Below, one piece after another: positions 1,863-51,854 of a stretch of 62,516 bases of DNA. This stretch comes from a virus. Its lineage: Duplodnaviria > Caudoviricetes. Under the pieces are notes generated by a model. It was given only the letters and a program-made list of their open reading frames with translations. It was not told the origin of the DNA and ran no database searches. Positions within the stretch are counted from its first letter, which is position 1; each line of letters opens with the position of its first letter. The stretch is from positions 1 through 62,516 of IMG/VR virus record IMGVR_UViG_3300037313_000418. One strand, given 5' to 3'. The position numbers and the translations under genes are program-made.

Positions 1863-1883
1863 TTCATTCCCCCTTAATAATTT

Positions 1884-2090
1884 TCATCTGTCGATAATTG
1901 CCACAGCACCCAGCAGACAAACACCACAATCAGCACAGTCAGCAGGCTTAGCGCTATCTTCATCGTCTATCTCCGCATCGCATATCTGACATTCCTCGTC
2001 CACGCTGACACCATGCGAACAGGCTAGATCGGCATCGAACCAGTCTGCTAGCGTGGCGGCGTAGTCGAGGCCAGGCACTATCCGCTCCAC
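1884..2090 (-). CDS. Small Cys-rich hypothetical protein
   Basis: In operon order, overlaps the ninB stop; CxxC pairs. Confidence 0.45.
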   Translation of the reverse strand: MERIVPGLDYAATLADWFDADLACSHGVSVDEECQICDAEIDDEDSAKPADCADCGVCLLGAVAIIDR

Positions 2091-2449
2091 TTCACGCCAC
2101 GTTCAGCGCCGAATGCCGCGATCAGTTCCAGCAAGTCCGAGAACTCGCGCTTCGTCATGTTGCTAGTCGATTGGCCCAACACTACAAAGCCGGTTCCATC
2201 CAGGTTCGGCACCACGTCTTGCCGCTTCAGGCTGCTGCTGAAAATGTGCTTCCAGCTCTCGGCGTCCAGGTAGCGGCCATGCCAAACCACTTGCGCTGAT
2301 ATGTCGGACAAGTATCCCCATAGAGCCGCGTTCTGCTCCAGGTTGCGAGTTGCTGGCGACACTCGCACCACATAGCCGACAGGTGCCGCGTGAATCGCGC
2401 CGGCTATGTGATTGCGGTTCGTGTCGGTGACGGTGAAGAACTGCTTCAT
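2078..2449 (-). CDS. ninB: NinB/Orf-family recombination protein
   Basis: TRNLEQNAALWGYLSDIS...WK...GQSTSNMTKREFSDLLELIAAFGAERGVKW. Confidence 0.85.
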   Translation of the reverse strand: MKQFFTVTDTNRNHIAGAIHAAPVGYVVRVSPATRNLEQNAALWGYLSDISAQVVWHGRYLDAESWKHIFSSSLKRQDVVPNLDGTGFVVLGQSTSNMTKREFSDLLELIAAFGAERGVKWSG

Positions 2450-2952
2450 CAGCGAATGTCCAGCCTCGTTCCTTGTGCCAGCATCGCACCAGGCACTTCC
2501 ACGCCAGCCTTGAGCGCATCCTTGATTGCAGTCTTATCCGGCGATGGCGGTGGTGGCTCAGGCTGACGCATGAACTCCGCAGGGATCAGGCCCGGCTCGA
2601 AAATATCCACGCTGGCCGGGTTGCTTTTGATCGCCAGGGCGAAGTGCGGGCAGTCGATTTTTTTCACACCCGCGATTTCCATGCAGGTTTTCAGGTATTC
2701 GCGCACATGGGCGGCGCGGTTCTCGATACGCTTGCGGCGCTCGGCCATTTCCTTTTCGGCGGCCTTGATGGCTTCCGCCGTGGCTTCCAAGTTCTTGACG
2801 GCATAGGCCACGTTCTGCGCCTTGACTTCGAGCGGATAAGACTCCGCTTCGATGGTGTCGGCAATGGCTACCTGATCGTCTTGCGCATCCATCAGGCGAT
2901 CTACCATTGCGCGGTATTCGGCGGCGATGTGATAAAGGGCTAGTGCGGTCAT
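2449..2952 (-). CDS. Siphovirus Gp157-family protein
   Basis: LYHIA start, coiled coil, SNPASV...PDKTAIKDALKAGVEVPGA.L. Confidence 0.85.
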   Translation of the reverse strand: MTALALYHIAAEYRAMVDRLMDAQDDQVAIADTIEAESYPLEVKAQNVAYAVKNLEATAEAIKAAEKEMAERRKRIENRAAHVREYLKTCMEIAGVKKIDCPHFALAIKSNPASVDIFEPGLIPAEFMRQPEPPPPSPDKTAIKDALKAGVEVPGAMLAQGTRLDIR

Positions 2953-2960
2953 GGCTTGCC

Positions 2961-3338
2961 TCAGAACGGGATTTCGTCGGGAAACGACTCATCATTGCGA
3001 GAGTTAGGCTGCTGGCGTTTCGTTGGCGCATCTTCGCGCTTGCCGCCTTGCAGAGCAACGTCAGCAACACGTACATCCATCTGCTTGCGCTTGTTGCCCT
3101 CCTTGTCCGTCCATTCGCGCTCAGTCACGTTGCCGCTGATCGTGACCGACTGGCCTTTGACGAGGTAAGGCGCGAGCGATTCGGCGCGTTTGCCATACAA
3201 GGCGCAATTCCAGAAAATTGCTGGCTTATCCTTGCCTTGATTGTCAGCGACGGCAAAGTTAGCAACGGCGTCGCCGCCCGGAGTGAAGCGCACTTCGGCG
3301 TCACGTGTGATGTTCCCTGCTAGGCAAATAACGTTCAT
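2961..3338 (-). CDS. ssb: Single-stranded DNA-binding protein
   Basis: GNITRDAEVRFT OB-fold start; acidic DEIPF C-terminus. Confidence 0.95.
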   Translation of the reverse strand: MNVICLAGNITRDAEVRFTPGGDAVANFAVADNQGKDKPAIFWNCALYGKRAESLAPYLVKGQSVTISGNVTEREWTDKEGNKRKQMDVRVADVALQGGKREDAPTKRQQPNSRNDESFPDEIPF

Positions 3339-3346
3339 GGCTTTCC

Positions 3347-3964
3347 TTAGTTGGTTACTTCGAGATCGGTCTTGCGGGCTTCATACGCGGCTTGCAAGAC
3401 TTTCCGCGCTGTCGCGTCTGCTCGCTTCCATGCGCCGGCATAAACGCCTTTTAGAGCCTCCATGTCGTCGCATTCAAGCATGGCAGTGCAGCAGGCATCG
3501 ACTTCATGTTCGGGCATCAATGCAGGTTTTGGCTGTGCTTTAACGGTCGCCTGCTGTGCAGGCTTGGCCGGAGCGTGCGAAGCGGCGTTGCCGTCGTCGT
3601 CGTCCTGGTACAACCCGGTAATCGCCGCCAGCGCATAGCGGCGGGCGTATGTCATGGCACTGCCGTACCCTTGCGGATCGTTCTTCGGCAGCGGCACAGT
3701 CGCCGTGTCCTCGATCCATTCGCCGGACGAGTGAACCAAGCGTGTAGTTAGGGCGAGGGTGCCAGGCTCAGACGGAGAGGGCGCTTGCAGGAACATGATT
3801 CCCTGCTCGTTCAGCGCAGGTTTGATCGCGTCGATCACTGCCGGCAGATCGGCGTAAGTGCTCTTGAAGTGCGGGTTCTTCGCATCCTTCGTTGCAAAGG
3901 TAATCGCCTTTTGCGCGGCTACCAGTGCCGGCGCGATCTTGTTGATGGTTTCGCTTGTTTTCAT
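3347..3964 (-). CDS. erf: ERF-family single-strand annealing recombinase
   Basis: KDAKNPHFKSTYADL...QGYGSAMTYARRYALAAITGLYQDDDDG. Confidence 0.9.
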   Translation of the reverse strand: MKTSETINKIAPALVAAQKAITFATKDAKNPHFKSTYADLPAVIDAIKPALNEQGIMFLQAPSPSEPGTLALTTRLVHSSGEWIEDTATVPLPKNDPQGYGSAMTYARRYALAAITGLYQDDDDGNAASHAPAKPAQQATVKAQPKPALMPEHEVDACCTAMLECDDMEALKGVYAGAWKRADATARKVLQAAYEARKTDLEVTN

Positions 3965-4098
3965 TCGATTCCTCGTAAAGTAAGTATTGCTGCTCTTCTT
4001 CCTGCTCCTGCTGCTGCCGCCAATCAGCGCCGCTCATTGCAGCCTCCGTAATAGTCGCCGGATCAAATACCGAATCCGGCCCGCCAAGCATGTGTGAA

Positions 4099-36394: not shown

Positions 36395-39300
36395 ATGTCC
36401 AGTAATCCGTTTGACCAGTTTGATGCGACCGCAGGCAGTGGCGGGAATCCCTTCGACACGTTCGATGATTCACAAAAAAATAAAGGCAAAGGCGTTCTTG
36501 GCCATGCGCGCGACCTTGGCTTATCACTCGCCAAGGGGGTTGTCGCTGTGCCGGAAGCCGCTGTCGGTCTAGCTGATATCGCTACCGGTGGACAAGCAGG
36601 CAAGGTACTGGCCAATGAGGATGGTGCCATTGGTTTCCGCCCAAAGCAGGCTAAAGAGTTTTTGTCCGATCTGCATACCGACCAGTACAAGGAGCAGCAG
36701 CGCCAGTTCGCTAATGCTGACGGCATCCTCGACAAGACCGTTACCGCCGTCAAAAATCCGTCCCTGATCGCCAATGCTGTAGTCGAATCGCTGCCACTGA
36801 TGGGCGCCGGCGGCGCGGCAGGCCGTGGTGCCATGGCGGTAGCGCCGCGGATCGGTGAACTGGGCGCCGCAGCTGCCGGCGAAGGCATTGTCGGCGCCGG
36901 TTCCTCGGCCGAGCAAATCCGCCAGGAGACCAAAGACGGCTTAATGACGCCAGAGCAAAGCGCGCTGGCTGCCGGCGTGGGTGCCGCAACCGCTGGATTC
37001 GGCGTATTGGGCGGCAAGGCGGCGCAAAAAATGGGAATTGGCGATATCGATACCATGGCCGTGCAAGGCAAGAAAGCCTTGGCGCAGCCGGTCGATGCTG
37101 CTGCCGCTAATAAGGGCATCACGCGACAAGTCATTGAAGGCGCGATCTCGGAAGGCTTGCTGGAAGAACTGCCGCAATCCGTATCCGAAACCCTGATGCA
37201 AAACATCGCCCTGGACAAGCCGTGGAATGACGGGCTGGATGAGTCCATTGTCATGGGCACCCTGTCGGGCATGGCTATGGGTGGCGGTGCTGCTGGTGTG
37301 CACGGCGTTGCCTCCAGCCGGCACGCCGTGCAAGCGCCCGCCACAGAACAAGCGCCAGCCACCGATGAAGGCTTGTCGCTAGCTCCGATCGATCAAGCTG
37401 CGCAGCAGGCGACCGCCAACGACATTGAGGCGTTCCCAGGCGGCACATTGGCGGTTCAACGTGCATTTGATGCGCGCGACAAGAAGAGCCGGCCGCCACT
37501 TTCTATCCTACCGCTCGCACCAACCGATGGGGTTGACTTCGTCCCGAGCGGCATTGCGCCGGTCAAGCCATCCGAGGCCATGAGCCTGGACCCGAACGCA
37601 GGCATGCTGTCGACTGCCGCGGCTACTGCCGTGGATGGTGGTGCACATGCCGTGGCACAGGCGCGAGAACAAGCGCAACTGGCGCTGGAGGAAGCAAGAA
37701 AGGGCGGCAAGGCGGTCATGGAAACCAAGCCGGTCGCTACTGATCTATCGAGCCGTTCTTTCGAGGAGTTGAGCGCGCAATTCCGCATTGCTCAAAACAA
37801 GGAAATCCGCACGGCGATCGCGACCGAGTTACAGCGGCGCCGCGCCGAGCAGAAAGCGACACAAGGAGCAAGCAATGGCCCAGCTGCTGACGTTTTACCC
37901 GGAGTTGCAACAAGCAATCGACCAGGGAATATTGACGCCCCAGCAGGCGTGGATGCTGTACTGGGACGAGCAAGTGAACCCGCACCTTCCGCCGCCGTTT
38001 CAGAACCGGCCGCTGCTGGACAAACTGGAACTGATGGACTTGCAGCCGGGCCCGGGCAGACTGCCGAACTGAAATTGCTAGCTGACTTGGAACAGCCGGG
38101 TTCCACACGCCAGGCGCAGTTTGATGCGCGCCGCCTGAATGCGCAGGCCACGTTGGATGATCTGCGAGCCAAGACGCACGTAGACAAGCAAGACCAGCAG
38201 GATGCACTGGAACAGGTCAAGCAGGAGTTGGACTCTGCCGCTCACGAAGCCGCCACCAGTCCGCAAAATGACCTGCCAGAGCCGACCCAAGCGCAGAAGG
38301 AAGCCGGCAACTACAAGAAGGGCCACACTCGCCTGCATGGCCTGGATATCGCCATTGAAAATCCTGCGGGCTCGATCCGTTCTGGCGTTGATCGTGACGG
38401 CAAGGCTTGGGAAAACCAGCTGCAGCACCACTACGGCTATATCAAGCACACCGAAGGCGCAGATGGCGACCATGTGGATACCTTCATCGGTCCCAAGGCG
38501 GATAGCCAAAATGTCTTTGTGGTGGACCAGATCGACCCGACTACCGGCAAATTCGATGAGCACAAGGTCATGTTGGGATTCGATTCGCTGCCGCAAGCCA
38601 GGATGGCTTACCAAGCGAACTATGCCAAGGGCTGGAAAGGTGGCAAGACCATCACCAAGACCAGCATAGACGAGTTCAAGGCATGGCTGGCCACGGGCGA
38701 TACGAAAGCACCGTTTAGCGGGAAACGTGCGGCGGAACACGGGAAAACCGTTTCGCTCACCGAGCCAAGCGGAACCGCTCCACAATCCGAACCACAAAAT
38801 ATTCCTAAAAATATTCAAGCGAGTGAGAACCAGGATACAGCAAAGGATGATTCCAATGTACCAACCGCTGACCCCCCAGCAAAGAATGCACCCGCTGTAT
38901 CTAATGACGCTACCACCGTTTCTGCTGATGAGCACGTGGCTGCTAATGGTGGAAAGGATGCTGCCGAAGGGCCGGAAGTAGGCAATGCCGATGTGACGCC
39001 GGCCCAGGATGCTGGCACCAAGCGCACGCGCGGCGTGCTGGCGAAGCTTGCCGAACGCAAAGGTGAGGCTGCACAGGATCCATCGACAGCCAAGAAGAAA
39101 CCGACCGAAAAGCAAAAGCAGGCCGCTGCAGTAGAAGCCATGCGCAAGATGCTGGGCGCTGAAGTGGGCGACACGATCACCATGACTTTCAAAGGCAGCT
39201 TCGGCTACCTGACGAGCGGCAAGCCCATGGTCATTGAAAGCATTAATAGCGATAAGAGCATTTATTTTCGTGATCCAGTGAACGGTTCGGGGACGTTTGA

Positions 39301-42300
39301 ATCGCTGTCGTCCATGCAGGCCGCCGCCAGGAATGCATTTGTCAAGTTGACTTGGACTGTAGAGCCAAAAGCAGAGCCGAAGCCGGCGCCGACCGAATCA
39401 GCGCCGGCGCCAGCCGCCAAACCCCAAAGTACACCACAGAATATTCCCGAAAATATTCCAGCTTCCGATGACAGCGCCAAGGCGCAGTCTGCTGCCACAG
39501 CCAAGATATCCGACTTCGGTCAGAAGATCGGCGGCGCCCGCAAGGACGTCTGGACATCATTCAAGGATGAGCTGAATGCCATCGGCGATGACGATATTGC
39601 CAATCAGCCGCTATCCAAGGTATGGCCGGCTCCGGATTACCAAGCGATGATCGATGCCGGCGCGGATCCGTGGATAGTCGGCTTTGCCCGTGCAACCCGC
39701 GATGAAGTGCCGGCAAAGCCGCGCACCAGTTACAAGGTGCGCAACTGGGTCGAGAAGGTCCGCATCCTACGGGAAATGACCACGAATCTGCTGGATGGGA
39801 CCTGGAGCAAGGAAACGGCGAGACGCGAGCTTGCCATGGCCGGCGCGGCATCGCGCGGCATGGCGGACATTGCCGGACGCATCGAGCTTTACACGCTGGT
39901 CGGCCATCGTCAGTCCCTAAGCGGCGTGCGCCTGTCGAGCGGCGAATACATGATGTACAAAGGCATCGAATACAAACCGCCTAAGGTTATGTGGACGGTG
40001 ACGAAAGACAGTTCTGCGACAGCGTTTAGCAACTGGCCGCGAGAATTGGCAATTGGCAACACCAGGCAAGAGGCGCTGGACAACTTCAAGGCCAAGTACG
40101 ATGCCATCGACATCAACCCGGTGCCTTCGAAGGAAGTCACGTTCGACATTTACACCAAACGCGAAGACAAGACGGTCTGGGTCGGAAAAAAAGTGGGGCG
40201 AAACCCGCTCTTGCTGTCCGGCCCATTTAAGACGGTCAAGGATGCGCGCGAGTACAAGGATAATAATCAGGCAGAGCTGGTCGCCAAGCTGGAAAAATCC
40301 AAAGAAATCCCGCGCGAGCGCCGCGACACTAATGAGCCCCGCATCGGCGAAGACATGCGCAACGGCCAGGACGTTACACCGGAAATGTTTGGTGACGCCT
40401 TCGGCTTCCGCGGCGTGGAGTTTGGCAACTGGGTCGAGCAAGGCCGGCGCCAGAAAGACTTGAACGATGCCTATGATGCCTTGATGGACATGGCTGCGGT
40501 TCTGGGCATCCAGCCAAAGGCCATTTCCCTGAATGGCGAGCTCGGCCTGGCGTTCGGCGCGCGCGGCAGCGGTGGCGTCAATCCCGCATCCGCCCATTAT
40601 GAACCTGGTAAGGTCGTCATCAACCTTACCAAGCGGCAGGGTGCCGGTAGCCTGGGGCATGAGTGGTGGCATGCGCTGGACAATTATTTCTCGCGTATGC
40701 GCGCCAAGGGCGGCGACTTCATGACGACCGCGCTGGACGTTTCACTGGCCGCGCGCGGGGCGGATTTCGTTGCCAATACCGCAGTCCGCAGGGAAATGAT
40801 TGCAGCCTTTGGTGAAGTGGTGAAGGCGATCCGGCAAACGTCACTCAAGGCACGTTCCTCGAAACTTGACGCAAAGCGCAGCAAGGAATACTGGACGACC
40901 GGCGAGGAAATGGCCGCGCGTGCGTTCGAGTCATACCTGATTTCGAAGCTGCAGGACCAGAATGCATCGAACGACTACCTGGCGAATATCGTAGCGCCGG
41001 AAACGTGGAAAGCCGCCGAGGCGCTTGGCTTTGAGTTGGACGATAGCTTTCCTTACCCGACCGCCGGCGAAATGCCGCTCATTCGCGCCGGATTTGATCA
41101 CTTTTTCCAGACGATTCAAACCCGCGAAACAGATCAAGGCATTGCGCTGTACGACCGCGGCGGCATGTTCTCGATCGGCATGCCAGTCAAGGAAGTGCAG
41201 GAAGAAGTCAGCCGAATCGCAGCCAGCTGGAAAAATGCACCGAAAATCAATGTGGTTGAGTCAGTCTATGACCTGCCATTCCAAGCGCCGCGCGACATTC
41301 GCGGTGTGTACGCGAAAGGCCAGGTCTGGATTGTGGCCGAGAACAATAATTCGGCTTTGGATGTGCAATCCGTTCTATTCCACGAAGTGCGTGCTCATGC
41401 TGGCTTACGGGGCTTGTTCGGCAGCCGGCTTTATCATGAGCTGCGTGCCATCGCGATGAAGAATGCCGATATCCGTAACCTAGCAACCACCTGGCGGGCG
41501 AAGAATGGCGACTTGCTGACGCAATATAAAGAAAAATACGGCGAGCAGCGCGGTCGGGAAATCTGGCAAATGACGTCAATTGAAGAAGCACTTGCCGACG
41601 TGGCCGGCGAGGGAAAGACCATTACCGGATTTCAGCGATTCATGAACGCGCTGCAAAAGGCACTGCGGGCGATCGGCTTTGATGCGCTGGCTAATTGGTT
41701 GGAAAACCGCACTGATGCCGAAGTCATGGCTTTGCTGGCCAAGGCTCGGCGGTATATTGAGGAAGGCGAGCAAGCAGCGGTGTTGGCTGGCCAGGCAGCG
41801 CCTGCGTATGCGCGCGGTGAACCACAGCGCCCGAGTGTCGATACCGATGACCGCTTAGTCAACATCTTTACTGAAATCGCTAAGCAGGACGATGCCTTCC
41901 GTCTGCCTGGCTCCAACGCTACCAGCTTGGAAACTGTGATCGCTGACATGATGCCAGGCGCGACGGTGGACGATACGGGCAATATCCTCGACTTCCTCAA
42001 CGACGAGGACCGCCAATCGTGGCCGGTGGACCGCTCGTGGGCAATCCGCCCCGGCAAAAATGCTGATGAAGTGGCGTATGTCTACCGGAACAACAAAGCC
42101 AAGGAAGTTTGGCTAGACATATCGAATTGGAAAGAAGGTAAGCAAGGATATGCCGTCTATCAGGTCGTGGCGACCTGGGCGCATAACAATGGTTATACCT
42201 TCATTGGCGACCCGGCCGGACTGTCAGACAAAGCGCTGTACCGCCGTACAGAGCAAATGATTTCATCCGCGCTGCGCCATGGCACGACCAAGCACTTGGC

Positions 42301-45300
42301 GCCGCATGCTCGCCAACTGGAAGCCACTGAGACGCGCGCAGGGCAGGAAGTGCGTCCATTGCGCTGGATCGACGGAGACGATGCAAATAACTTGCGGGAA
42401 ATGCTTGTTTCATCCTACACTAATATCAAACAGATATTTCCCGAGATCGATGATGTCACCTTTAATTTCTCCACAGGTCAGTTCGAACGCGCACCCGTTC
42501 GCGCATCTGGAGGGGCATTATTGGCTGACGAACCCGCTGGCAGAGAACAAGCTGATGCGTCAGGGGTGGAGCAGGGAAGCGATCGAGGCGCTGCCAAACG
42601 AGCAGCTACTGGCGCTGATGAAGGAAGTCGGCGACTCGCACGAGTGGATGCAGTACCTTTCACTGACGCGGATTTCCGATCTCTTGCAGAGTCAGTTCGA
42701 GGCGCTTATGACGTACTCTTTCCATCCAGTCGAGGAGCGTATACGCCTCCGATTGGCGTGTCTGATCTTAAAAGAGCGGTTATCACCGCATCCGTTCTAC
42801 GCGGAGAAAGCAGCGAGGCTGGGCGAGTCCTACTGGATCACGCATCAGAGCGGCTGCTACAACGTGTAAAAAGCTCCCAGCTTAATCAAGTTTTATATAG
42901 CCGTGGCCCTATCCATGATGGGGCGCGTGAATACGCACGCCAGGCCGTCGATACCCTGAACGCCAATTTCAGCGCGCCGGGCAGGCTGTCGTGGTGGCAT
43001 AAGACGGTCGGCACGATGTACAACCTAGCCGAGCGATCCCCATACTTTAAGCCTGTATTCGATGCCGCGCAGGGCTTCATTGACGATGTGAGCCACTACG
43101 CCAATGACGCCGCCGACCTGGCGCCGCGCCTATTGCCGAAGCTGGAAAACTGGCGCGACATCATGAAGTCGCCGATTTCCGCCACCGATAACAAGGCCAT
43201 CGCCCGCCCGATCTTTGAGGGCACACTGTCATGGTCCCGTGGCCTGGATGGCAAGCCGGTGCAGACACTGAAATTAGAGGAAGAAGCCACCGGACTGGAC
43301 GCCAAAGAAAAGGCTGATCGCCTGCTTGCGGCCGACAAGCTAACCCACGGTATGCACAAGGCCTGGCTGGGGATGCCGGAAGAACAGTATGAAAAGCTGA
43401 TCGATTCCCGCTACGAATCGCAGATGCTGCAACCGGGGATTGTCTGGACGGATGCCGAACTGAAATCCATGTTCAACCTGAACGAGGAACAAATCGGCCT
43501 GTACCGCGAATTCCGCGAGGCGACCGACCGTAGCCTGGATACCATGGCACGCGCAGACATGCTGCGTTACGGTGGCGATGACGTGAAGGATTTGCGCAGT
43601 GCGGTCATGGCTGCCGCTGATGCACAAGAGGCGTCTATTCTCTTACGAGACAGGCTGGTGGAACTGTCGCAAACCATGCCGGACCGGGAAGAGCAGCTTA
43701 CCGCACTGGCGCACGGCATCATTGACCGCGCCGACCGGCTATCCGACCTGCAGGGCAAGGGGTATGCGCCGCTGTCGCGCTTTGGTCGCTATACCGTGGA
43801 TGTGGTAGCGGACGGCGAGCGACAATACTTCGGCTTGTTTGAGACTGCCCGCGAAGCCAATCAGATGGCCGAGCGCATGCGCAAGGAATTCGGCAAGGAT
43901 GCGGTCAGCCAGGGCACGATGTCGAACGAGGCCTTTAAACTGTTCGCAGGCATCACACCGGAATCGCTGGAACTGTTCGGCAACATGCTGGGCCTCGATT
44001 CGACTGGCGACGGCGCCCGCGACCAGGCGTTCCAGGAATACCTGCGGCTGACCAAGGCCAATCGCAGCGCCATGAAGCGCCTGATTCACCGCCAGGGCAT
44101 CGCCGGCTTCAGCGAGGATGCCGGGCGCGTGCTGGCTTCCTTCATCTATTCCAATGCTCGCCAGACGGCCGCCGGCTTGAACATGGGCGACTTGGGCGAA
44201 GCGGTGAATGCGATCCCGAAAGAACAGGGCGAACTGAAAGATGCGGCAGTGCGCTTGTCCGAGTACATTAAGAATCCTCAGGAGGAAGCGCAAGCCATCC
44301 GTGGATTGCTGTTTGCCCAATACTTGGGCGGCTCAATCGCTTCGGCGTTTGTCAACATGACGCAGCCTGCGGCGGTTTCCTTCCCTTGGTTGAGTCAGTA
44401 CGGCGGCGCTCGCAAGGCTGCTGCAGCGCTTGGGCGCGCGGCAAAAGAATTGGCCAAGCGTGGGCACCAATATGAGCCGGACCTTGCCAAAGCACTGAAG
44501 CATGCCGAAGAAGATGGCACGGTCAGCCCGCAAGAGGTGCACCAGCTCATGGCGCAGGCGCGCGGTTCCGGTTCGCTGCGCAGTGGTGACGGCACAAAAT
44601 TTGGAGAAGCGCGCGCGCGAGCACAAAACTCGCTTTCTCGCCTTTCCCTGGCATGGGGCAAAGTGTTCGGCGCCGCCGAGCAGGTCAACCGGCGCCTGAC
44701 CTTCATCGCTGCCTACCGGATGGCGAAGGAGCAGGGCATTGCCAATCCCGCTACGTTTGCGCGCCGGGCTGTCACTGAAACGCAGTTCGTCTATTCCAAG
44801 GCATCAAAGATGCAATGGGGCCGCGGTGCGGTCGGCGGAACGCTGATGACCTTCAAGACCTATTCCATCGCTTACCTTGAACTGCTGCATCGCATGTATA
44901 CGCAAGGTGGACCGGAAGGCAAGAAGGCGGCCTTGCTGGCGATGGGCGTATTGATGCTGATGGGCGGCGCGGGCGGCGTGCCGTTTGCCGAGGATGTCGA
45001 AGATGCGGCCGATGGCCTAGCGCAACTGCTGGGCTATAACATCAGCACCAAGAAAGCACGCCAGGAGTTCTTGGAAAACCTGTTTGGCCGCGAGATCGCC
45101 AACTTCATCGACAAGGGTGTGACGGGTTTGCCGGGGGCGCCGCTGGATGTGTCCGGCCGCCTCGGTATGGGTAACCTGATTCCGGGTACTGGGCTTTTCC
45201 AGGAAAAGTCGAGCCATACCCGTGATGTGTTGGAAGTGGTGGGGCCGATGGGCGACTTTGCGCAACGCATCGTGACCGGTGGCCGTAAAATCCTCGGCGG

Positions 45301-45784
45301 CGATATCGGCGCCGGCCTGCTGGAAGTCGCGCCGACTGCCGTGCGCAATGCCGCCAAGGGCGCCGACATGGCGGCCACTGGCATGTACCGCGACGCCAAG
45401 GGCTACAAGGTATTGGACACCACGACGCTGGAAGCGGCCTTGAAAGCGATCGGGTTCCAGCCGCAGTCTGTGGCCACGGTGCAGGAAGCCAATGCCCTCA
45501 ACCAGCAAGCCAAGAACTTCTACAGCCTGAAGGCACAGGAGATCCGCGCCCGCTGGGCACAAGGGATTTTCGAGAAGGATCCGACCAAGGTGCAGGCGGC
45601 ACGCGATGAAATCACCGCCTGGAATGCCAAGAACCCGAACCAGCCGATGATGATCCGCATTCCAGACGTCATGAAGCGCGTGCGCGAAATGGCCAAATCC
45701 AAGGATCAGCGCATTGCCGACGCGGCGCCAAAGGCCATGCGCGCGCAGTTGCGGGATGAAATCGCCCGCAATCGTGAAAATTGA
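36395..45784 (+). CDS. Giant polyvalent virion protein (PLxRFG family) with inorganic-pyrophosphatase-like, LPD5/LPD1-like, zincin and GNAT-like domains
   Basis: 3129 aa; IAIENPAGSIRSG...HYGYI...DGDHVD; DFGQKIGGARKD; GLAFGARG...HEWWH; FHEVRAH; YAPLSRFG. Confidence 0.85.
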   Translation: MSSNPFDQFDATAGSGGNPFDTFDDSQKNKGKGVLGHARDLGLSLAKGVVAVPEAAVGLADIATGGQAGKVLANEDGAIGFRPKQAKEFLSDLHTDQYKEQQRQFANADGILDKTVTAVKNPSLIANAVVESLPLMGAGGAAGRGAMAVAPRIGELGAAAAGEGIVGAGSSAEQIRQETKDGLMTPEQSALAAGVGAATAGFGVLGGKAAQKMGIGDIDTMAVQGKKALAQPVDAAAANKGITRQVIEGAISEGLLEELPQSVSETLMQNIALDKPWNDGLDESIVMGTLSGMAMGGGAAGVHGVASSRHAVQAPATEQAPATDEGLSLAPIDQAAQQATANDIEAFPGGTLAVQRAFDARDKKSRPPLSILPLAPTDGVDFVPSGIAPVKPSEAMSLDPNAGMLSTAAATAVDGGAHAVAQAREQAQLALEEARKGGKAVMETKPVATDLSSRSFEELSAQFRIAQNKEIRTAIATELQRRRAEQKATQGASNGPAADVLPGVATSNRPGNIDAPAGVDAVLGRASEPAPSAAVSEPAAAGQTGTDGLAAGPGQTAELKLLADLEQPGSTRQAQFDARRLNAQATLDDLRAKTHVDKQDQQDALEQVKQELDSAAHEAATSPQNDLPEPTQAQKEAGNYKKGHTRLHGLDIAIENPAGSIRSGVDRDGKAWENQLQHHYGYIKHTEGADGDHVDTFIGPKADSQNVFVVDQIDPTTGKFDEHKVMLGFDSLPQARMAYQANYAKGWKGGKTITKTSIDEFKAWLATGDTKAPFSGKRAAEHGKTVSLTEPSGTAPQSEPQNIPKNIQASENQDTAKDDSNVPTADPPAKNAPAVSNDATTVSADEHVAANGGKDAAEGPEVGNADVTPAQDAGTKRTRGVLAKLAERKGEAAQDPSTAKKKPTEKQKQAAAVEAMRKMLGAEVGDTITMTFKGSFGYLTSGKPMVIESINSDKSIYFRDPVNGSGTFESLSSMQAAARNAFVKLTWTVEPKAEPKPAPTESAPAPAAKPQSTPQNIPENIPASDDSAKAQSAATAKISDFGQKIGGARKDVWTSFKDELNAIGDDDIANQPLSKVWPAPDYQAMIDAGADPWIVGFARATRDEVPAKPRTSYKVRNWVEKVRILREMTTNLLDGTWSKETARRELAMAGAASRGMADIAGRIELYTLVGHRQSLSGVRLSSGEYMMYKGIEYKPPKVMWTVTKDSSATAFSNWPRELAIGNTRQEALDNFKAKYDAIDINPVPSKEVTFDIYTKREDKTVWVGKKVGRNPLLLSGPFKTVKDAREYKDNNQAELVAKLEKSKEIPRERRDTNEPRIGEDMRNGQDVTPEMFGDAFGFRGVEFGNWVEQGRRQKDLNDAYDALMDMAAVLGIQPKAISLNGELGLAFGARGSGGVNPASAHYEPGKVVINLTKRQGAGSLGHEWWHALDNYFSRMRAKGGDFMTTALDVSLAARGADFVANTAVRREMIAAFGEVVKAIRQTSLKARSSKLDAKRSKEYWTTGEEMAARAFESYLISKLQDQNASNDYLANIVAPETWKAAEALGFELDDSFPYPTAGEMPLIRAGFDHFFQTIQTRETDQGIALYDRGGMFSIGMPVKEVQEEVSRIAASWKNAPKINVVESVYDLPFQAPRDIRGVYAKGQVWIVAENNNSALDVQSVLFHEVRAHAGLRGLFGSRLYHELRAIAMKNADIRNLATTWRAKNGDLLTQYKEKYGEQRGREIWQMTSIEEALADVAGEGKTITGFQRFMNALQKALRAIGFDALANWLENRTDAEVMALLAKARRYIEEGEQAAVLAGQAAPAYARGEPQRPSVDTDDRLVNIFTEIAKQDDAFRLPGSNATSLETVIADMMPGATVDDTGNILDFLNDEDRQSWPVDRSWAIRPGKNADEVAYVYRNNKAKEVWLDISNWKEGKQGYAVYQVVATWAHNNGYTFIGDPAGLSDKALYRRTEQMISSALRHGTTKHLAPHARQLEATETRAGQEVRPLRWIDGDDANNLREMLVSSYTNIKQIFPEIDDVTFNFSTGQFERAPVRASGGALLADEPAGREQADASGVEQGSDRGAAKRAATGADEGSRRLARVDAVPFTDADFRSLAESVRGAYDVLFPSSRGAYTPPIGVSDLKRAVITASVLRGESSEAGRVLLDHASERLLQRVKSSQLNQVLYSRGPIHDGAREYARQAVDTLNANFSAPGRLSWWHKTVGTMYNLAERSPYFKPVFDAAQGFIDDVSHYANDAADLAPRLLPKLENWRDIMKSPISATDNKAIARPIFEGTLSWSRGLDGKPVQTLKLEEEATGLDAKEKADRLLAADKLTHGMHKAWLGMPEEQYEKLIDSRYESQMLQPGIVWTDAELKSMFNLNEEQIGLYREFREATDRSLDTMARADMLRYGGDDVKDLRSAVMAAADAQEASILLRDRLVELSQTMPDREEQLTALAHGIIDRADRLSDLQGKGYAPLSRFGRYTVDVVADGERQYFGLFETAREANQMAERMRKEFGKDAVSQGTMSNEAFKLFAGITPESLELFGNMLGLDSTGDGARDQAFQEYLRLTKANRSAMKRLIHRQGIAGFSEDAGRVLASFIYSNARQTAAGLNMGDLGEAVNAIPKEQGELKDAAVRLSEYIKNPQEEAQAIRGLLFAQYLGGSIASAFVNMTQPAAVSFPWLSQYGGARKAAAALGRAAKELAKRGHQYEPDLAKALKHAEEDGTVSPQEVHQLMAQARGSGSLRSGDGTKFGEARARAQNSLSRLSLAWGKVFGAAEQVNRRLTFIAAYRMAKEQGIANPATFARRAVTETQFVYSKASKMQWGRGAVGGTLMTFKTYSIAYLELLHRMYTQGGPEGKKAALLAMGVLMLMGGAGGVPFAEDVEDAADGLAQLLGYNISTKKARQEFLENLFGREIANFIDKGVTGLPGAPLDVSGRLGMGNLIPGTGLFQEKSSHTRDVLEVVGPMGDFAQRIVTGGRKILGGDIGAGLLEVAPTAVRNAAKGADMAATGMYRDAKGYKVLDTTTLEAALKAIGFQPQSVATVQEANALNQQAKNFYSLKAQEIRARWAQGIFEKDPTKVQAARDEITAWNAKNPNQPMMIRIPDVMKRVREMAKSKDQRIADAAPKAMRAQLRDEIARNREN
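37875..38072 (+). CDS. Nested +1-frame 65-aa gene inside the giant gene
   Basis: AAGGAG RBS then ATG; MAQLLTFYPELQQAIDQGILTPQQAWMLYWDEQ...; host frame is a low-complexity linker here. Confidence 0.6.
   Translation: MAQLLTFYPELQQAIDQGILTPQQAWMLYWDEQVNPHLPPPFQNRPLLDKLELMDLQPGPGRLPN
38856..38981 (+). CDS. Nested +1-frame 41-aa hydrophobic peptide
   Basis: AAGGA upstream of ATG; MYQPLTPQQRMHPLYLMTLPPFLLMSTWLLMVERMLPKGRK. Confidence 0.35.
   Translation: MYQPLTPQQRMHPLYLMTLPPFLLMSTWLLMVERMLPKGRK
42450..42869 (+). CDS. Nested +1-frame helical protein (start uncertain: 42450 or 42555)
   Basis: Frame open from 42279; protein-like amphipathic helices (WSREAIEALPNEQLLALMKEV...RIRLRLACLILKERL). Confidence 0.45.
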   Translation: MMSPLISPQVSSNAHPFAHLEGHYWLTNPLAENKLMRQGWSREAIEALPNEQLLALMKEVGDSHEWMQYLSLTRISDLLQSQFEALMTYSFHPVEERIRLRLACLILKERLSPHPFYAEKAARLGESYWITHQSGCYNV

Positions 45785-50318: not shown

Positions 50319-50663
50319 ATGACAGACACCCTAGAAAAATCCCTCGCCGTCGCCATCGCCAAGATGGATAACTTGCACGGCGATGTGCAAGAGATCAAGA
50401 GCGCCCAGCGCGATATGGCAACCGCCATCATGAAGATGGCTTTGGTCGAGGAACGGCAAAGCCAAGCCGCGCTGGCGCAGGAACGCACGTTCAAGGTGTT
50501 GGAAAAGATGGAAAACCGCTTCGATGCGCTGGAAAAACGGGTGGTCGAACTGGAGAAGGACGAGCCGACGCAAAAGCGGGTGGCCGACTGGGTATTTGCC
50601 GCTGTATGGGGCGCGGTCGGGCTGGTGGCGATGTTCATCGGTAAGCAGGTAGGGTTACTGTGA
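50319..50663 (+). CDS. Coiled-coil protein with C-terminal TM (holin/antiholin-like)
   Basis: Precedes the endolysin; a single C-terminal hydrophobic segment. Confidence 0.55.
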   Translation: MTDTLEKSLAVAIAKMDNLHGDVQEIKSAQRDMATAIMKMALVEERQSQAALAQERTFKVLEKMENRFDALEKRVVELEKDEPTQKRVADWVFAAVWGAVGLVAMFIGKQVGLL

Positions 50664-51190
50664 ACCCGCTCTTAAAAAAGCGCCTCGCCCTGGCCGGTGG
50701 TGGCGGCACGCTGGCGATCGCGGCCGTGCTGGGCGCCTGGTATGAAGGTGACGGCCCCAGCGTCAAGCAGCCCGATGGCGTGGTGCATTACGTGCCATAC
50801 CGCGATACCGGCGATGTGTGGACCGTCTGCCGCGGTGTCACCGGCCCCGAAGTCTTCCCCTACAAACGCTACACCATCCCGGAGTGCCGCGCGTTGGAAC
50901 GCGCCGCACTGGTAAATGCCGAGCGCGGTGCCAAGGCCGTGCTGCGGCATTACGGCGCGTACAACAAGTGGCGGCAAGCGGCGCTGGTCGACTATACCTA
51001 TAACTTGGGCGCGGGCGCCCTTGCCGGCAGCACCATGGCGAAAAAATTCAATGCCGGCGATGAAGTCGGCGGCTGCCAGGAATTGGCGCGGTGGGTCAAG
51101 GGGCGCGTCAAGGGCAAGTTGGTCACACTGCCTGGCCTAGTGGACCGCCGCGCCACCGAACAGGAACTGTGCCTGGGAGCGATCACATGA
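50660..51190 (+). CDS. SAR endolysin (GH24 lysozyme)
   Basis: Gly/Ala-rich N-terminal TM, then EG...YRDTGDVWTVCRGVTG, YNLG and GLVDRRATE. Confidence 0.9.
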   Translation: MNPLLKKRLALAGGGGTLAIAAVLGAWYEGDGPSVKQPDGVVHYVPYRDTGDVWTVCRGVTGPEVFPYKRYTIPECRALERAALVNAERGAKAVLRHYGAYNKWRQAALVDYTYNLGAGALAGSTMAKKFNAGDEVGGCQELARWVKGRVKGKLVTLPGLVDRRATEQELCLGAIT

Positions 51191-51366
51191 ACCGTTACCG
51201 TAGCCGTAAATTCATCCTGACGCTGGCGTCGGTGGCCTCGGCAACCGGGCTGGTCGCGTTCGGCCTGATCAGCGATGGCGTCTATTCCACCGTCATGATT
51301 GCAACGGTCGGCGGCTACCTGACAGCCAACGTCGCGCAGAAAGCGACAATCAAGGAGCCGCAATGA
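51187..51366 (+). CDS. Small 2-TM holin-like protein
   Basis: SRKFILTL...GGYLTANVAQK; between the endolysin and Rz. Confidence 0.6.
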   Translation: MNRYRSRKFILTLASVASATGLVAFGLISDGVYSTVMIATVGGYLTANVAQKATIKEPQ

Positions 51367-51854
51367 CACTTCCATTATGGTTCCGCGCCACCGTCGCCGC
51401 TGTGATCATTGCTGCTGTCGTGGGCATCTTGGGTGCAATAGCCTACGGCATTGACCAGAACGGCTACCAGCGCGCCGAAGCGAGGTGGAAAGCGAAATAT
51501 GCCGACCTCGAAGCCAAGCAAGCCAAAGCCAATGCCGACGCCAAGGCCGCCGCCCTGGTGAAGGAGCGGGAATATCAAGCCAACTTACAAGGAGCCCAAG
51601 ATGCTGCCAAAAAACGGGAAGCCGCCATACTTACTGACGCTAATCTTGCTCGTGTTGAGTCTGAGCGCGTGCGCGGCGACCTTGCCGCCATCCGAGCCAA
51701 GCTGCCCAGCCTTGCCGAAGCGGCCGTCCGTCGCTACGCAGACGCCGCCAGTGTCGTATTCGACCAGTGCCAAAGAAGATATACAGAAGTGGCAGAAATC
51801 GCTGACCGATGCGGTAGCGACCTCAAAACCTTAGAGGATGCCTGGCCAAGGTAG
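51363..51854 (+). CDS. Rz: i-spanin (Rz-like)
   Basis: N-terminal TM, coiled coil, C-terminal Cys; contains an embedded lipoprotein gene. Confidence 0.85.
   Translation: MTLPLWFRATVAAVIIAAVVGILGAIAYGIDQNGYQRAEARWKAKYADLEAKQAKANADAKAAALVKEREYQANLQGAQDAAKKREAAILTDANLARVESERVRGDLAAIRAKLPSLAEAAVRRYADAASVVFDQCQRRYTEVAEIADRCGSDLKTLEDAWPR
51601..51834 (+). CDS. Rz1: o-spanin (Rz1-like lipoprotein) embedded in Rz
   Basis: +1 frame; RBS AAGGAG; lipobox LSAC; Pro-rich. Confidence 0.85.
   Translation: MLPKNGKPPYLLTLILLVLSLSACAATLPPSEPSCPALPKRPSVATQTPPVSYSTSAKEDIQKWQKSLTDAVATSKP

What the first reader, a model, noticed from the sequence alone, without database searches (positions are those of the whole stretch)
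37875..38072. Hidden gene nested in the +1 frame of the giant polyvalent gene
Seen: ACAAGGAGCAAGCAATG gives a textbook RBS and ATG opening a 65-aa, globular-looking ORF (MAQLLTFYPELQQAIDQGILTPQQAWMLYWDEQVNPHLPPPFQNRPLLDKLELMDLQPGPGRLPN). Exactly there the main frame degenerates into a G/A/P/S linker, just before the pyrophosphatase-like domain. The geometry matches the accepted nested Rz1 in this same genome. Inference: the linkers of polyvalent proteins may be shadows of embedded small genes, for example antidotes or chaperones that neutralise adjacent domains during virion assembly. I know of no description of this arrangement.
Basis: partly seen in the sequence, partly recalled or inferred. 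Interest (0 to 1): 0.8.

Follow-up and report, generated by a model that had tools for sequence, protein, structure and literature searches.

The report
Conserved hidden gene inside giant phage gene
A 65-codon reading frame hidden inside the linker of a giant phage virion-protein gene is a real, conserved small gene that annotation has missed, although what its protein does is still unknown.

Summary
At 37875-38072 an ATG, preceded by AAGGAG and a 6-nt spacer, opens a 65-codon ORF. It lies in the +1 frame of the 3129-aa polyvalent gene (36395-45784), over an A/G/P-rich linker 72 residues before the InPase domain.

On its own the ORF is not unusual. Synonymous shuffles give such an ORF here 41% of the time.

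Comparison makes it a gene:
- The peptide matches seven 63-67 aa proteins among 1.84 billion (E down to 3.5e-8).
- A family profile finds a member in the +1 frame of the giant gene in 40 of 80 related viral contigs. More were found in L083, four metagenome contigs, seven Aeromonas genomes and phage phiARM81mr.
- All 41 checked (the window among them) have a start codon and a Shine-Dalgarno-like motif, and the main frame stays open across them.
- Main-frame third-position diversity drops only over this ORF: 3 of 44 windows.
- Changes silent in the nested frame but not in the main frame make up 0.65 of one-frame-silent changes. The figure is 0.14-0.29 in seven control stretches.

The product is a soluble, acidic, three-helix protein with no known family or fold. 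Its function is inferred only.

The parts
36395..45784 (+). Giant polyvalent virion-protein gene (3129 aa), the host of the nested gene
   Evidence: One open frame. Pfam InPase 632-765, LPD5 1188-1335, LPD1 1491-1577, LPD37 1824-2136. It lies among virion structural genes.
36467..37411 (+). N-terminal module of the giant protein (residues 25-339), shared with other giant virion proteins
   Evidence: phrog_30335 E 1.1e-86, phrog_11358 and phrog_2206 (virion RNA polymerase N-terminal part). The five carrier genes scanned (L014, L037, L043, L060, L083) all match phrog_2206; three also match phrog_10089 and two phrog_30335.
37863..37868 (+). Shine-Dalgarno motif AAGGAG, 6 nt before the nested ATG
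   Evidence: Read. It is the only 6-mer SD before any of 120 out-of-frame ATGs in the gene. An SD-like motif stands at the same place in 41 of 41 family members checked. The start region folds less stably than 194 of 200 shuffles.
37875..38072 (+). Nested gene, +1 frame: 65 codons plus TGA. Predicted product is a soluble acidic three-helix protein.
   Evidence: ORF; codon and GC3 signature; homologous 63-67 aa proteins; conservation and selection in relatives; AF2 pLDDT 76.6, three helices; pI 4.4, no membrane segment, no Cys.
37874..38071 (+). Main-frame A/G/P/S-rich linker (residues 494-559) read across the nested gene
   Evidence: AGPS fraction 0.56 and GC3 0.30-0.35, the lowest in the gene. 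No relative of residues 400-625 other than the protein itself in a word-indexed search of 5.8 billion proteins of 1720-5476 aa.
38288..38689 (+). InPase (pyrophosphatase-like) domain, residues 632-765, downstream neighbour
   Evidence: Pfam PF18823, E 3.6e-59.
42555..42869 (+). Possible second nested gene (+1 frame, 104 codons) in the insert of the LPD37 region. Support is weak.
   Evidence: Main-frame GC3 is 0.39 and nested-frame GC3 0.75. ATG, length and stop are kept in L084 and L085. NS/(NS+SN) is 35/80 = 0.44. P(open | main protein) is 0.026. Only 3 sequences are available and no called homologue was found.

Best explanation
The ORF at 37875-38072 is a genuine protein-coding gene, fully embedded in the +1 frame of the giant polyvalent virion-protein gene.

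Shown:
- It belongs to a conserved family of 63-69 aa proteins.
- Every member found with its DNA is nested in the +1 frame of a long ORF, inside a low-complexity linker. That long ORF is a polyvalent gene in all 9 carriers scanned (Pfam or PHROG matches).
- Each has its own start codon and Shine-Dalgarno-like motif.
- In the overlap, purifying selection acts more strongly on the nested frame than on the main frame. The linker's sequence is therefore largely dictated by the small gene.

Inferred, about 80%: the protein is made by internal initiation on the late mRNA of the giant gene. No sigma-70-like promoter lies nearby, and the start region is only weakly structured.

Inferred from codon usage, about 60%: the nested frame is the older one. 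The polyvalent gene would have come to read across a small gene in another frame.

Inferred only, about 30%: the product is a soluble, acidic, three-helix protein made together with the giant ejected protein. It would act on or with that protein, most likely as a dedicated assembly or packaging chaperone or a co-packaged partner. This would resemble the small acidic chaperones encoded beside secreted cargo in other systems (recalled, not tested).
For: 1. Homologues. phmmer of the 65-aa peptide against 1.84 billion representatives gave 9 hits at E <= 0.001. Seven are full-length proteins of 63-67 aa (E 3.5e-8 to 1e-4, 40-59% identity).

2. Same place and frame. The iterated family HMM, run on six-frame pieces of the 80 loci, scores E < 1e-5 in 40 loci plus the window. 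All hits are on the + strand and in the +1 frame of the giant ORF.

3. Gene signals in all 41. There are 40 ATG starts and 1 GTG. All 41 have an SD-like motif: GAGGT with a 5-nt spacer in 37; AAGGAG in the window, L037 and L025; only GGGGG in L014. The main frame is open across all 41, and 36 of the nested DNA sequences are distinct.

4. Further members, all nested in long ORFs. These are L083, 4 of the 47 metagenome stretches returned by the motif scan, 7 Aeromonas genome loci, and phage phiARM81mr.

5. Phase of variation. Across 31 distinct 195-nt ORFs, diversity at nested codon positions 1/2/3 is 0.184/0.183/0.263. Pairwise identity is 71% in the nested protein and 59.5% in the main-frame protein.

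6. Synonymous-site suppression. Main-frame pi1/2/3 is 0.25/0.24/0.44 outside the ORF (221 codons) and 0.28/0.21/0.21 inside it (64 codons). Over 1116 aligned codons, pi3/mean(pi1,pi2) is below 1 only in the 3 windows over the ORF (0.87, 0.59, 0.89). The other 41 windows are all >= 1.20.

7. Change classes on a minimum spanning tree. There are 238 changes silent in the nested frame but not in the main frame, and 122 of the reverse kind. Expected share is 0.456; binomial p = 7e-15. The share is 0.65 in the ORF. It is 0.14-0.17 in three domain controls and 0.23-0.29 in four other linkers. L138 against L178, of the window's own subtype, gives 11 against 8, the same direction.

8. Single-sequence signal in the window. 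GC3 is 0.82 in the nested frame and 0.34 in the main frame. The nested codon score exceeds 111 of 111 +1-frame control windows. The known Rz/Rz1 overlap in this window shifts the same way.

9. The two subtypes are related. hhalign of the window type against the Aeromonas type gives E 1.6e-4 over 56 columns. Independent AF2 models give the same three-helix order: H9-16, H22-34, H42-56 against H6-13, H19-30, H42-63, with pLDDT 76.6 and 77.9.

10. Protein properties. All 7 members tested are acidic (pI 4.05-5.8) and have no membrane segment.
Against: - No direct evidence of translation. No run on record as RNA was listed, and no ribosome-profiling or proteome data are at hand.
- ORF length, openness and one SD among 120 ATGs are each within chance for the window alone.
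- Most comparative power comes from one clade, Aeromonas prophages, whose members are related. The tree correction is only a minimum spanning tree, and transition/transversion and GC bias are not modelled.
- The link between the window subtype and the Aeromonas subtype is modest: hhalign probability 50.6% and individual A1-HMM hits of E 0.0075-1.5.
- 40 of 80 InPase-bearing relatives show no member in the DNA fetched. These include L002, L003, L005 and L007, which share the window's N-terminal architecture.
- For the window's own subtype only 6 DNA loci were found, and window against L083 is saturated (25, 24, 29 differences at the three positions).
- Function: no family, fold or partner was found.
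Confidence: 0.85

Rival explanations
1. Chance ORF. The +1 frame of an A/G/P-rich linker in about 60% GC DNA is nearly free of stops, and an ATG with an SD-like motif arose by accident. No protein is made.
For: 12 ATG ORFs of at least 50 aa lie in the +1 frame of this gene. Shuffles give an ORF of at least 65 aa here in 41% and no stop in 48.5%. About one strong SD among 120 out-of-frame ATGs is near expectation.
Against: - Homologous 63-69 aa ORFs occur at the same place and frame with a start and an SD in 41 of 41 members checked.
- The peptide has homologues at E 3.5e-8 among 1.84 billion proteins.
- The synonymous and non-synonymous pattern is reversed.
- The codon score lies outside all 111 shadow-frame controls.
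Confidence: 0.03
2. A nucleotide-level element, such as an RNA structure, a regulatory site or a packaging signal, constrains the DNA. The open frame is a by-product.
For: Main-frame synonymous diversity is suppressed over about 200 nt. Any functional nucleotide element could cause this.
Against: - The constraint has a period of three in the nested phase, with nested position 3 the most variable.
- Stops are absent, and the ATG, SD and stop position are kept.
- Similarity persists at protein level between subtypes that align weakly as proteins (hhalign 23% identity over 56 columns, E 1.6e-4).
- There is no Rfam match at E <= 1.
- The start region is less structured than 194 of 200 shuffles.
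Confidence: 0.03
3. Relic frame. The stretch was once read in this frame, either as a separate gene or as part of the giant protein before a pair of compensating frameshifts. It keeps the old codon signature but is no longer expressed.
For: The GC3 phase and codon usage of the nested frame look 'ancestral', and the main frame looks 'overprinted'.
Against: A dead frame would accumulate stops and lose its start. Instead start, SD, length and stop are kept across 36 distinct sequences and several divergent subtypes. Changes in the nested protein are still selected against.
Confidence: 0.05
4. The frame is reached by programmed +1 ribosomal frameshifting from the main frame. This would give a truncated N-terminal module with an alternative C-terminal tail rather than a free 65-aa protein.
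For: The frame is on the same strand and inside a long translated gene. Phage structural genes are known to use frameshifting (general knowledge). In the window the +1 frame is open from 37773, 34 codons before the ATG.
Against: In most relatives the open stretch is exactly 65 codons, with a stop two codons before the ATG. Only a shift inside the ORF could then work. The conserved ATG and SD argue for initiation. No slippery site was looked for.
Confidence: 0.04

Closest known systems
Rz/Rz1 embedded two-component spanin genes (phage lambda type; also present in this window at 51363..51854 and 51601..51834)
   Same: A small gene lies wholly inside a larger gene on the same strand, in the +1 frame, with its own start. 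Both products are conserved. The GC3 phase shifts the same way in the overlap.
   Different: The product here is not a spanin. It has no signal sequence, no lipobox Cys and no membrane segment, and it matches no spanin PHROG. The host gene is a 3129-aa virion protein, and the overlap falls in a disordered linker, not a folded periplasmic domain. No functional link between the two products is known.
Overprinted genes of small viruses (for example the phiX174-type overlapping genes; the overprinting literature was seen only as search-listing abstracts)
   Same: One DNA stretch codes in two frames. One frame carries typical codon usage and the other is compositionally odd and disordered.
   Different: Here the long host gene supplies the disordered, atypical frame, and the short embedded gene supplies the typical one. 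The setting is a 62.5-kb tailed-phage genome rather than a genome under extreme size limits. The comparison rests on general knowledge and was not tested.
Polyvalent proteins of phages and conjugative elements (Iyer et al. 2017, PMC5512222)
   Same: The host gene is a member, with InPase, LPD5, LPD1 and LPD37 domains. Carriers elsewhere have SLT, LPD38 or ART-PolyVal domains.
   Different: In that paper, read through passages found by term search, 'overlapping' does not occur, and 'nested' and 'reading frame' occur only in other senses. A gene hidden in a linker is an addition to that picture.
Small acidic chaperones or helpers encoded beside translocated cargo, such as type III secretion class I chaperones or the helper proteins for packaging DarB in phage P1 (recalled from memory, no call)
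   Same: The protein is small, acidic, helical and soluble, and it is genetically coupled to a large protein thought to be delivered into another cell.
   Different: This is an analogy only. There is no sequence or fold similarity, and binding was not shown. Membership is not claimed.

Membership tests
Embedded out-of-frame gene pair of a phage (Rz/Rz1-type geometry) | The small ORF lies wholly inside a larger ORF, on the same strand and in a different frame | tested here: met
   37875-38072 is in the +1 frame of 36395-45784. The same holds in 40 related loci and the further loci.
Embedded out-of-frame gene pair of a phage (Rz/Rz1-type geometry) | Own translation start signals | tested here: met
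   AAGGAG, 6 nt, then ATG. A start codon and an SD-like motif are present in 41 of 41.
Embedded out-of-frame gene pair of a phage (Rz/Rz1-type geometry) | Purifying selection on the embedded frame while the host frame stays open | tested here: met
   NS/(NS+SN) is 0.65 against 0.14-0.29 in seven controls. The main frame is open in 41 of 41.
Embedded out-of-frame gene pair of a phage (Rz/Rz1-type geometry) | The embedded protein is actually made | not testable with these tools
   No ribosome-profiling or proteome data are available, and no RNA holder was listed.
Rz1 / o-spanin | N-terminal signal with a lipobox Cys; proline-rich outer-membrane lipoprotein | tested here: not met
   The window peptide has no Cys, and its highest 19-residue hydropathy is 0.29. 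It did not appear in the lipobox scan and has no PHROG match.
Unnamed family of 63-69 aa proteins (this report) | Full-length similarity to other members | tested here: met
   phmmer gave E 3.5e-8 to 1e-4 to seven proteins of 63-67 aa. A profile search gave 121 clusters at E <= 0.001 among 351 candidates, mostly of 64 aa and named only 'hypothetical protein'.
Unnamed family of 63-69 aa proteins (this report) | Common fold: short helix, turn, helix, Pro-rich loop, long helix | tested here: met
   Two AF2 models were built, one from the pooled 42-row alignment A2 headed by the window peptide and one from the Aeromonas-type alignment A4 alone. These are predictions of moderate confidence (pLDDT 77-78).
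Polyvalent protein (host gene) | A very large protein stringing several conflict-related and LPD domains together | tested here: met
   Pfam InPase, LPD5, LPD1 and LPD37 in one 3129-aa ORF.
Helix-turn-helix DNA-binding protein (considered for the product) | Recognisable HTH fold or profile | tested here: inconclusive
   There is no Pfam, NCBIfam or PHROG match. There is no Foldseek hit at E <= 0.001 in PDB or BFVD. The turn Gly is not conserved in the Aeromonas type.
Programmed-frameshift product | A slippery site and a frame open upstream of the shift point | not tested
   No slippery-site search was run. In most relatives a stop lies two codons before the ATG.

The most novel reading that the evidence does not exclude
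The 'linker' is really a mobile dual-coding cassette. In this reading an old small gene was swallowed when a polyvalent gene came to read through it in another frame, and it now travels between polyvalent genes with its linker. It is found before InPase, after InPase, and in genes with other neighbouring domains. Its acidic three-helix product would be a dedicated chaperone, adaptor or antidote for the giant ejected protein. Polyvalent genes could hold more such hidden genes, for example 42555..42869 in this window. Giant phage genes would then be unrecognised reservoirs of small proteins.
Probability: 0.25. Interest if true: 0.85.

Novelty: new variant of a known kind. Interest (0 to 1): 0.7.

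Why it matters
Same-strand embedded genes in tailed phages are known from very few cases, Rz/Rz1 above all, and annotation pipelines suppress them.

This is a conserved, unannotated example inside a widely discussed class of anti-host 'polyvalent' proteins. It is supported by selection signatures rather than by ORF length.

It shows three things:
- At least one 'disordered linker' of these giants is shaped by a second gene.
- GC3 phase together with synonymous-site diversity can pick out such genes.
- A small acidic protein is made in step with a giant virion protein.

It also gives a clean experiment. Single-base changes can remove the small protein without touching the large one. The outcome could reveal how giant proteins are packaged or deployed.

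Tried and rejected
Close relatives of the window's own linker (residues 381-632):
- None were found in viral, genome or metagenome contigs.
- Among proteins of 1720-5476 aa, only the protein itself was found.
- An orthologue-level dN/dS for the window was therefore impossible.

Direct searches with the peptide:
- tblastn against the 80 loci gave nothing below E 0.03. Only a family HMM revealed the relatives.
- tblastn of the window, L037 and L083 peptides against 50,697 phage records gave no match.
- Pfam, PHROGs and NCBIfam gave no family.
- ESM Atlas gave no usable hit.
- Foldseek on PDB (twice) and BFVD gave nothing at E <= 0.001.

Partner and expression:
- Complex prediction of giant-protein residues 1-770 (alignment A3) with the small protein (A2) returned 'no answer'. 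This is not evidence either way.
- The look-up of sequencing runs listed one DNA run, possibly the source, and no RNA holder.

Other checks:
- Rfam and the promoter scan of the region found nothing.
- The third low-GC3 stretch, 38727..38981, shows no +1-frame conservation in relatives and is rejected as a gene.
- The second stretch, 42555..42869, has no called homologues and only 3 sequences. It is kept as a lead only.
- L026 has a +1 ORF that resembles the family by eye, but it did not pass the HMM, so it is not counted.
- P0002 and P0010 (repeat proteins of 549 and 484 aa) match only residues 29-61 through repeats. I treated them as spurious.
- The first InPase control failed because the loci were not in register. 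It was replaced by codon alignments.

Limits on the counts and the literature:
- Loci are not de-duplicated across collections.
- Searches for a prior description were seen as listings and abstracts, plus passages of PMC5512222. Nothing on this gene was found. Supplements were closed and might list it among predicted small phage genes.
Full report
**What is there.** The window is a 62,516-base virus record. ORF 36395..45784 (+) encodes a 3129-aa protein with Pfam InPase (632-765), LPD5, LPD1 and LPD37 domains. It lies among virion structural genes. Its N-terminal 490 residues match PHROGs of other giant virion proteins: phrog_30335, phrog_11358 and phrog_2206. At 37875 an ATG opens a 65-codon ORF in the +1 frame, ending in TGA at 38070-38072. 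The ATG is preceded by AAGGAG (37863-37868) and a 6-nt spacer. It overlies main-frame residues 494-559, an A/G/P/S-rich stretch (0.56) that ends 72 residues before the InPase domain. An Rz-like spanin ORF (51363..51854) contains a +1-frame lipoprotein ORF (51601..51834), next to an endolysin.

**Is the ORF itself unusual? No.**
- The +1 frame of the giant gene holds 12 ATG ORFs of at least 50 aa, and 6 of at least 65 aa.
- Shuffling synonymous codons while keeping the protein gives on average 5.2 such ORFs.
- An ORF of at least 65 aa falls over this very spot in 41% of 500 shuffles. No stop occurs in the 65 codons in 48.5% of 1000 shuffles.
- A strong SD precedes 1 of 120 out-of-frame ATGs, and this is that one. 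That is about what chance would give.

On these grounds alone I would have dismissed the finding.

**The first sign of more came from composition.** Main-frame GC3 over the ORF is 0.34, against 0.65 for the whole gene and 0.66 for 15 reference genes. The nested frame has GC1/2/3 of 0.67/0.34/0.82, the profile of a true frame in this genome. Its codon score (0.36) lies within the range of 111 true-frame windows, at their 9th percentile. It lies above all 111 +1-frame windows, whose maximum is -0.03. Other A/G-rich parts of the protein keep GC3 near 0.70. The known Rz/Rz1 overlap in the same window shows the same kind of shift.

**Homologues exist.** phmmer of the 65-aa peptide against 1.84 billion representatives returned 9 hits at E <= 0.001. 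Seven are proteins of 63-67 aa aligned end to end (E 3.5e-8 to 1e-4, 40-59% identity). The other two are long repeat proteins that I regard as spurious. A later profile search found 121 clusters at E <= 0.001 among 351 candidates. Almost all are 64 aa and, where named, are called 'hypothetical protein'. The names are mostly Aeromonas genomes and compost metagenomes.

**Where they are encoded.** I had fetched 80 viral contigs that encode relatives of the giant protein's first 768 residues.

- An HMM of the eight small proteins was run on all six-frame pieces of these loci. It produced a striking list of weak hits (E 3e-5 to about 1.5). Nearly all were on the + strand, in the +1 frame of the giant ORF, mostly exactly 65 codons long, and 80-810 nt before the InPase match.
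- After one iteration, 40 of the 80 loci plus the window scored E < 1e-5.
- All 41 have a start codon: 40 ATG, and GTG in L025.
- All 41 have an SD-like motif. It is GAGGT with a 5-nt spacer in 37; AAGGAG in the window, L037 and L025; and only GGGGG in L014.
- The main frame is open across all 41, and 36 of the nested DNA sequences are distinct.
- A degenerate motif scan found one more viral contig, L083, with a 64-aa ORF in the +1 frame of a giant gene whose next domain is not InPase.
- The same scan returned 47 metagenome stretches, of which 4 hold full-length members. All 4 are nested in ORFs of 364-1801 open codons.
- Seven Aeromonas genomes and the deposited Aeromonas phage phiARM81mr also carry it. 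In the phage only the giant CDS is annotated.
- No stand-alone copy was seen.
- The other 40 loci show no member within the DNA fetched. These include L002, L003, L005 and L007, which share the window's architecture.

**Selection.** Among 31 distinct 195-nt ORFs of the Aeromonas type:

- Nucleotide diversity is highest at nested codon position 3 (0.263, against 0.184 and 0.183). That position is main-frame position 1.
- The nested proteins are 71% identical on average, and the main-frame peptides 59.5%.
- In a main-frame codon alignment, pi at positions 1/2/3 is 0.25/0.24/0.44 outside the ORF and 0.28/0.21/0.21 inside it.
- Over 1116 well-aligned codons of 33 distinct loci, split into 44 windows of 25 codons, pi3/mean(pi1,pi2) falls below 1 only in the three windows over the ORF (0.87, 0.59, 0.89). 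All others are >= 1.20.
- Counting changes along a minimum spanning tree gives 238 changes silent in the nested frame but not in the main frame, and 122 of the reverse kind. The expected share is 0.456, and the binomial p is 7e-15.
- That share is 0.65 in the ORF. With a mock +1 frame it is 0.15, 0.14 and 0.17 in three domains, and 0.27, 0.29, 0.23 and 0.26 in four other linker stretches.
- The one close pair of the window's own subtype (L138 and L178) gives 11 against 8.

There are caveats. The sequences are related. The tree correction is crude, and mutation bias is not modelled. The size and specificity of the effect make these unlikely to matter.

**Are the window type and the Aeromonas type one family?**
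- Profile-profile comparison gives E 1.6e-4 over 56 of 64-66 columns, with probability 50.6%.
- Intermediates link them: L037 at E 3e-5 to the window-type HMM, and L014.
- Both types share position, frame, size and the context around the ATG.
- AF2 models built from the pooled alignment A2 and from the Aeromonas-type alignment A4 alone give the same order of three helices, with pLDDT 76.6 and 77.9.

I take them as one family with moderate confidence. The window's membership in its own subtype does not depend on this.

**How it most likely works.**

- Shown: the gene, its signals and its constraint.
- Inferred: it is translated by internal initiation on the giant gene's late mRNA. No sigma-70-like promoter lies within 37300-38400. 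The start region folds less stably than 194 of 200 shuffles. No Rfam family matches.
- The protein is soluble and acidic. The pI is 4.05-5.8 in 7 of 7 members. There is no membrane segment, and Cys is absent from 6 of the 7 (one in L014).
- It has no relative in Pfam, PHROGs, NCBIfam, PDB or BFVD.
- It is not tied to the InPase domain. It lies before InPase in most loci, after it in L025, 215 residues before it in L140, and in genes with other domains in L083 and L138.
- All five carriers scanned with PHROGs share the N-terminal module typical of giant virion proteins.

My best guess, at about 30%, is a helper or partner of the giant ejected protein, acting in packaging, folding or deployment. 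The codon signature suggests, at about 60%, that the small gene's frame is the older one and that the polyvalent gene reads across it.

**The generalisation.** The idea that polyvalent linkers in general hide genes is not supported. In the Aeromonas clade only this linker shows dual coding. Half of the relatives lack the gene in the DNA fetched. The window itself has two other low-GC3 stretches.

- 42555..42869 (+1 frame, 104 codons) keeps its ATG, length and stop in L084 and L085. The main-frame position-3 variable fraction is 0.42 there, against 0.65 upstream. NS/(NS+SN) is 35/80. The frame is open in only 2.6% of shuffles. But only three sequences exist, and no called homologue was found.
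- 38727..38981 shows no conservation in the +1 frame.

**Novelty.** No family model, annotation or paper describing this gene was found. Supplements could not be read. The phenomenon of an embedded +1-frame gene in a phage is known from Rz/Rz1. This is a different gene pair in a different setting, with the unusual feature that the short gene constrains the long one. I rate it a new variant of a known kind.

**Verdict.** The core interpretation, a hidden gene, is supported at about 0.85. The function and the generalisation remain open or unsupported. Interest is 0.7.

Noticed in passing
window 42555-42869 (+1 frame of the giant gene, within the insert of the LPD37 region): A possible second nested gene of 104 codons. 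Main-frame GC3 is 0.39 and nested-frame GC3 0.75. ATG, length and stop are kept in L084 and L085. The +1 frame is open in only 2.6% of synonymous shuffles, and NS/(NS+SN) is 35/80. Only three sequences are available, and no called homologue was found.
   Followed up: partly
window 38705-39000 (+1 GTG ORF 38727..38981): A third stretch of low main-frame GC3 (0.32-0.42), just after the InPase domain. The +1 peptide has no match in the 80 related loci, whereas the main frame does. The low GC3 is unexplained.
   Followed up: partly
window 50660-51854: The lysis cassette. It holds an endolysin (50660..51190, phrog_7) followed by an Rz-like spanin (51363..51854) with an embedded +1-frame Rz1-like lipoprotein ORF (51601..51834, with a lipobox and proline-rich).
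   Followed up: yes
L025 3524-3727: Here the family member starts with GTG, preceded by AAGGAG and a 7-nt spacer. It lies just after the InPase domain instead of before it, so the nested gene is not tied to one neighbouring domain.
   Followed up: partly
L071 (main frame opens only at 2461) and L040 (main frame open only 1864..4092): In these two loci the giant frame is interrupted near the nested gene; L071 has three stops upstream. The nested ORF is intact in both. The giant gene may be split or decaying there.
   Followed up: no
Aeromonas-type loci, main-frame alignment columns 919-944 (about 80 codons before the nested start in L043): A very strongly conserved main-frame motif lies shortly upstream of the nested gene. 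Diversity at positions 1/2/3 is 0.10/0.08/0.39. It is rich in K, E, A and G and matches no Pfam family.
   Followed up: no
L138 (metagenome contig), giant ORF residues 1383-1446: A carrier of the nested gene whose giant protein has an ART-PolyVal (ADP-ribosyltransferase) domain and no InPase in the part seen.
   Followed up: no
window 36455-36664 (giant protein residues 21-90): Main-frame GC1 exceeds GC3 by more than 0.25 here as well (GC3 0.45-0.50). The shift is milder than at the three stretches above. I did not examine it.
   Followed up: no
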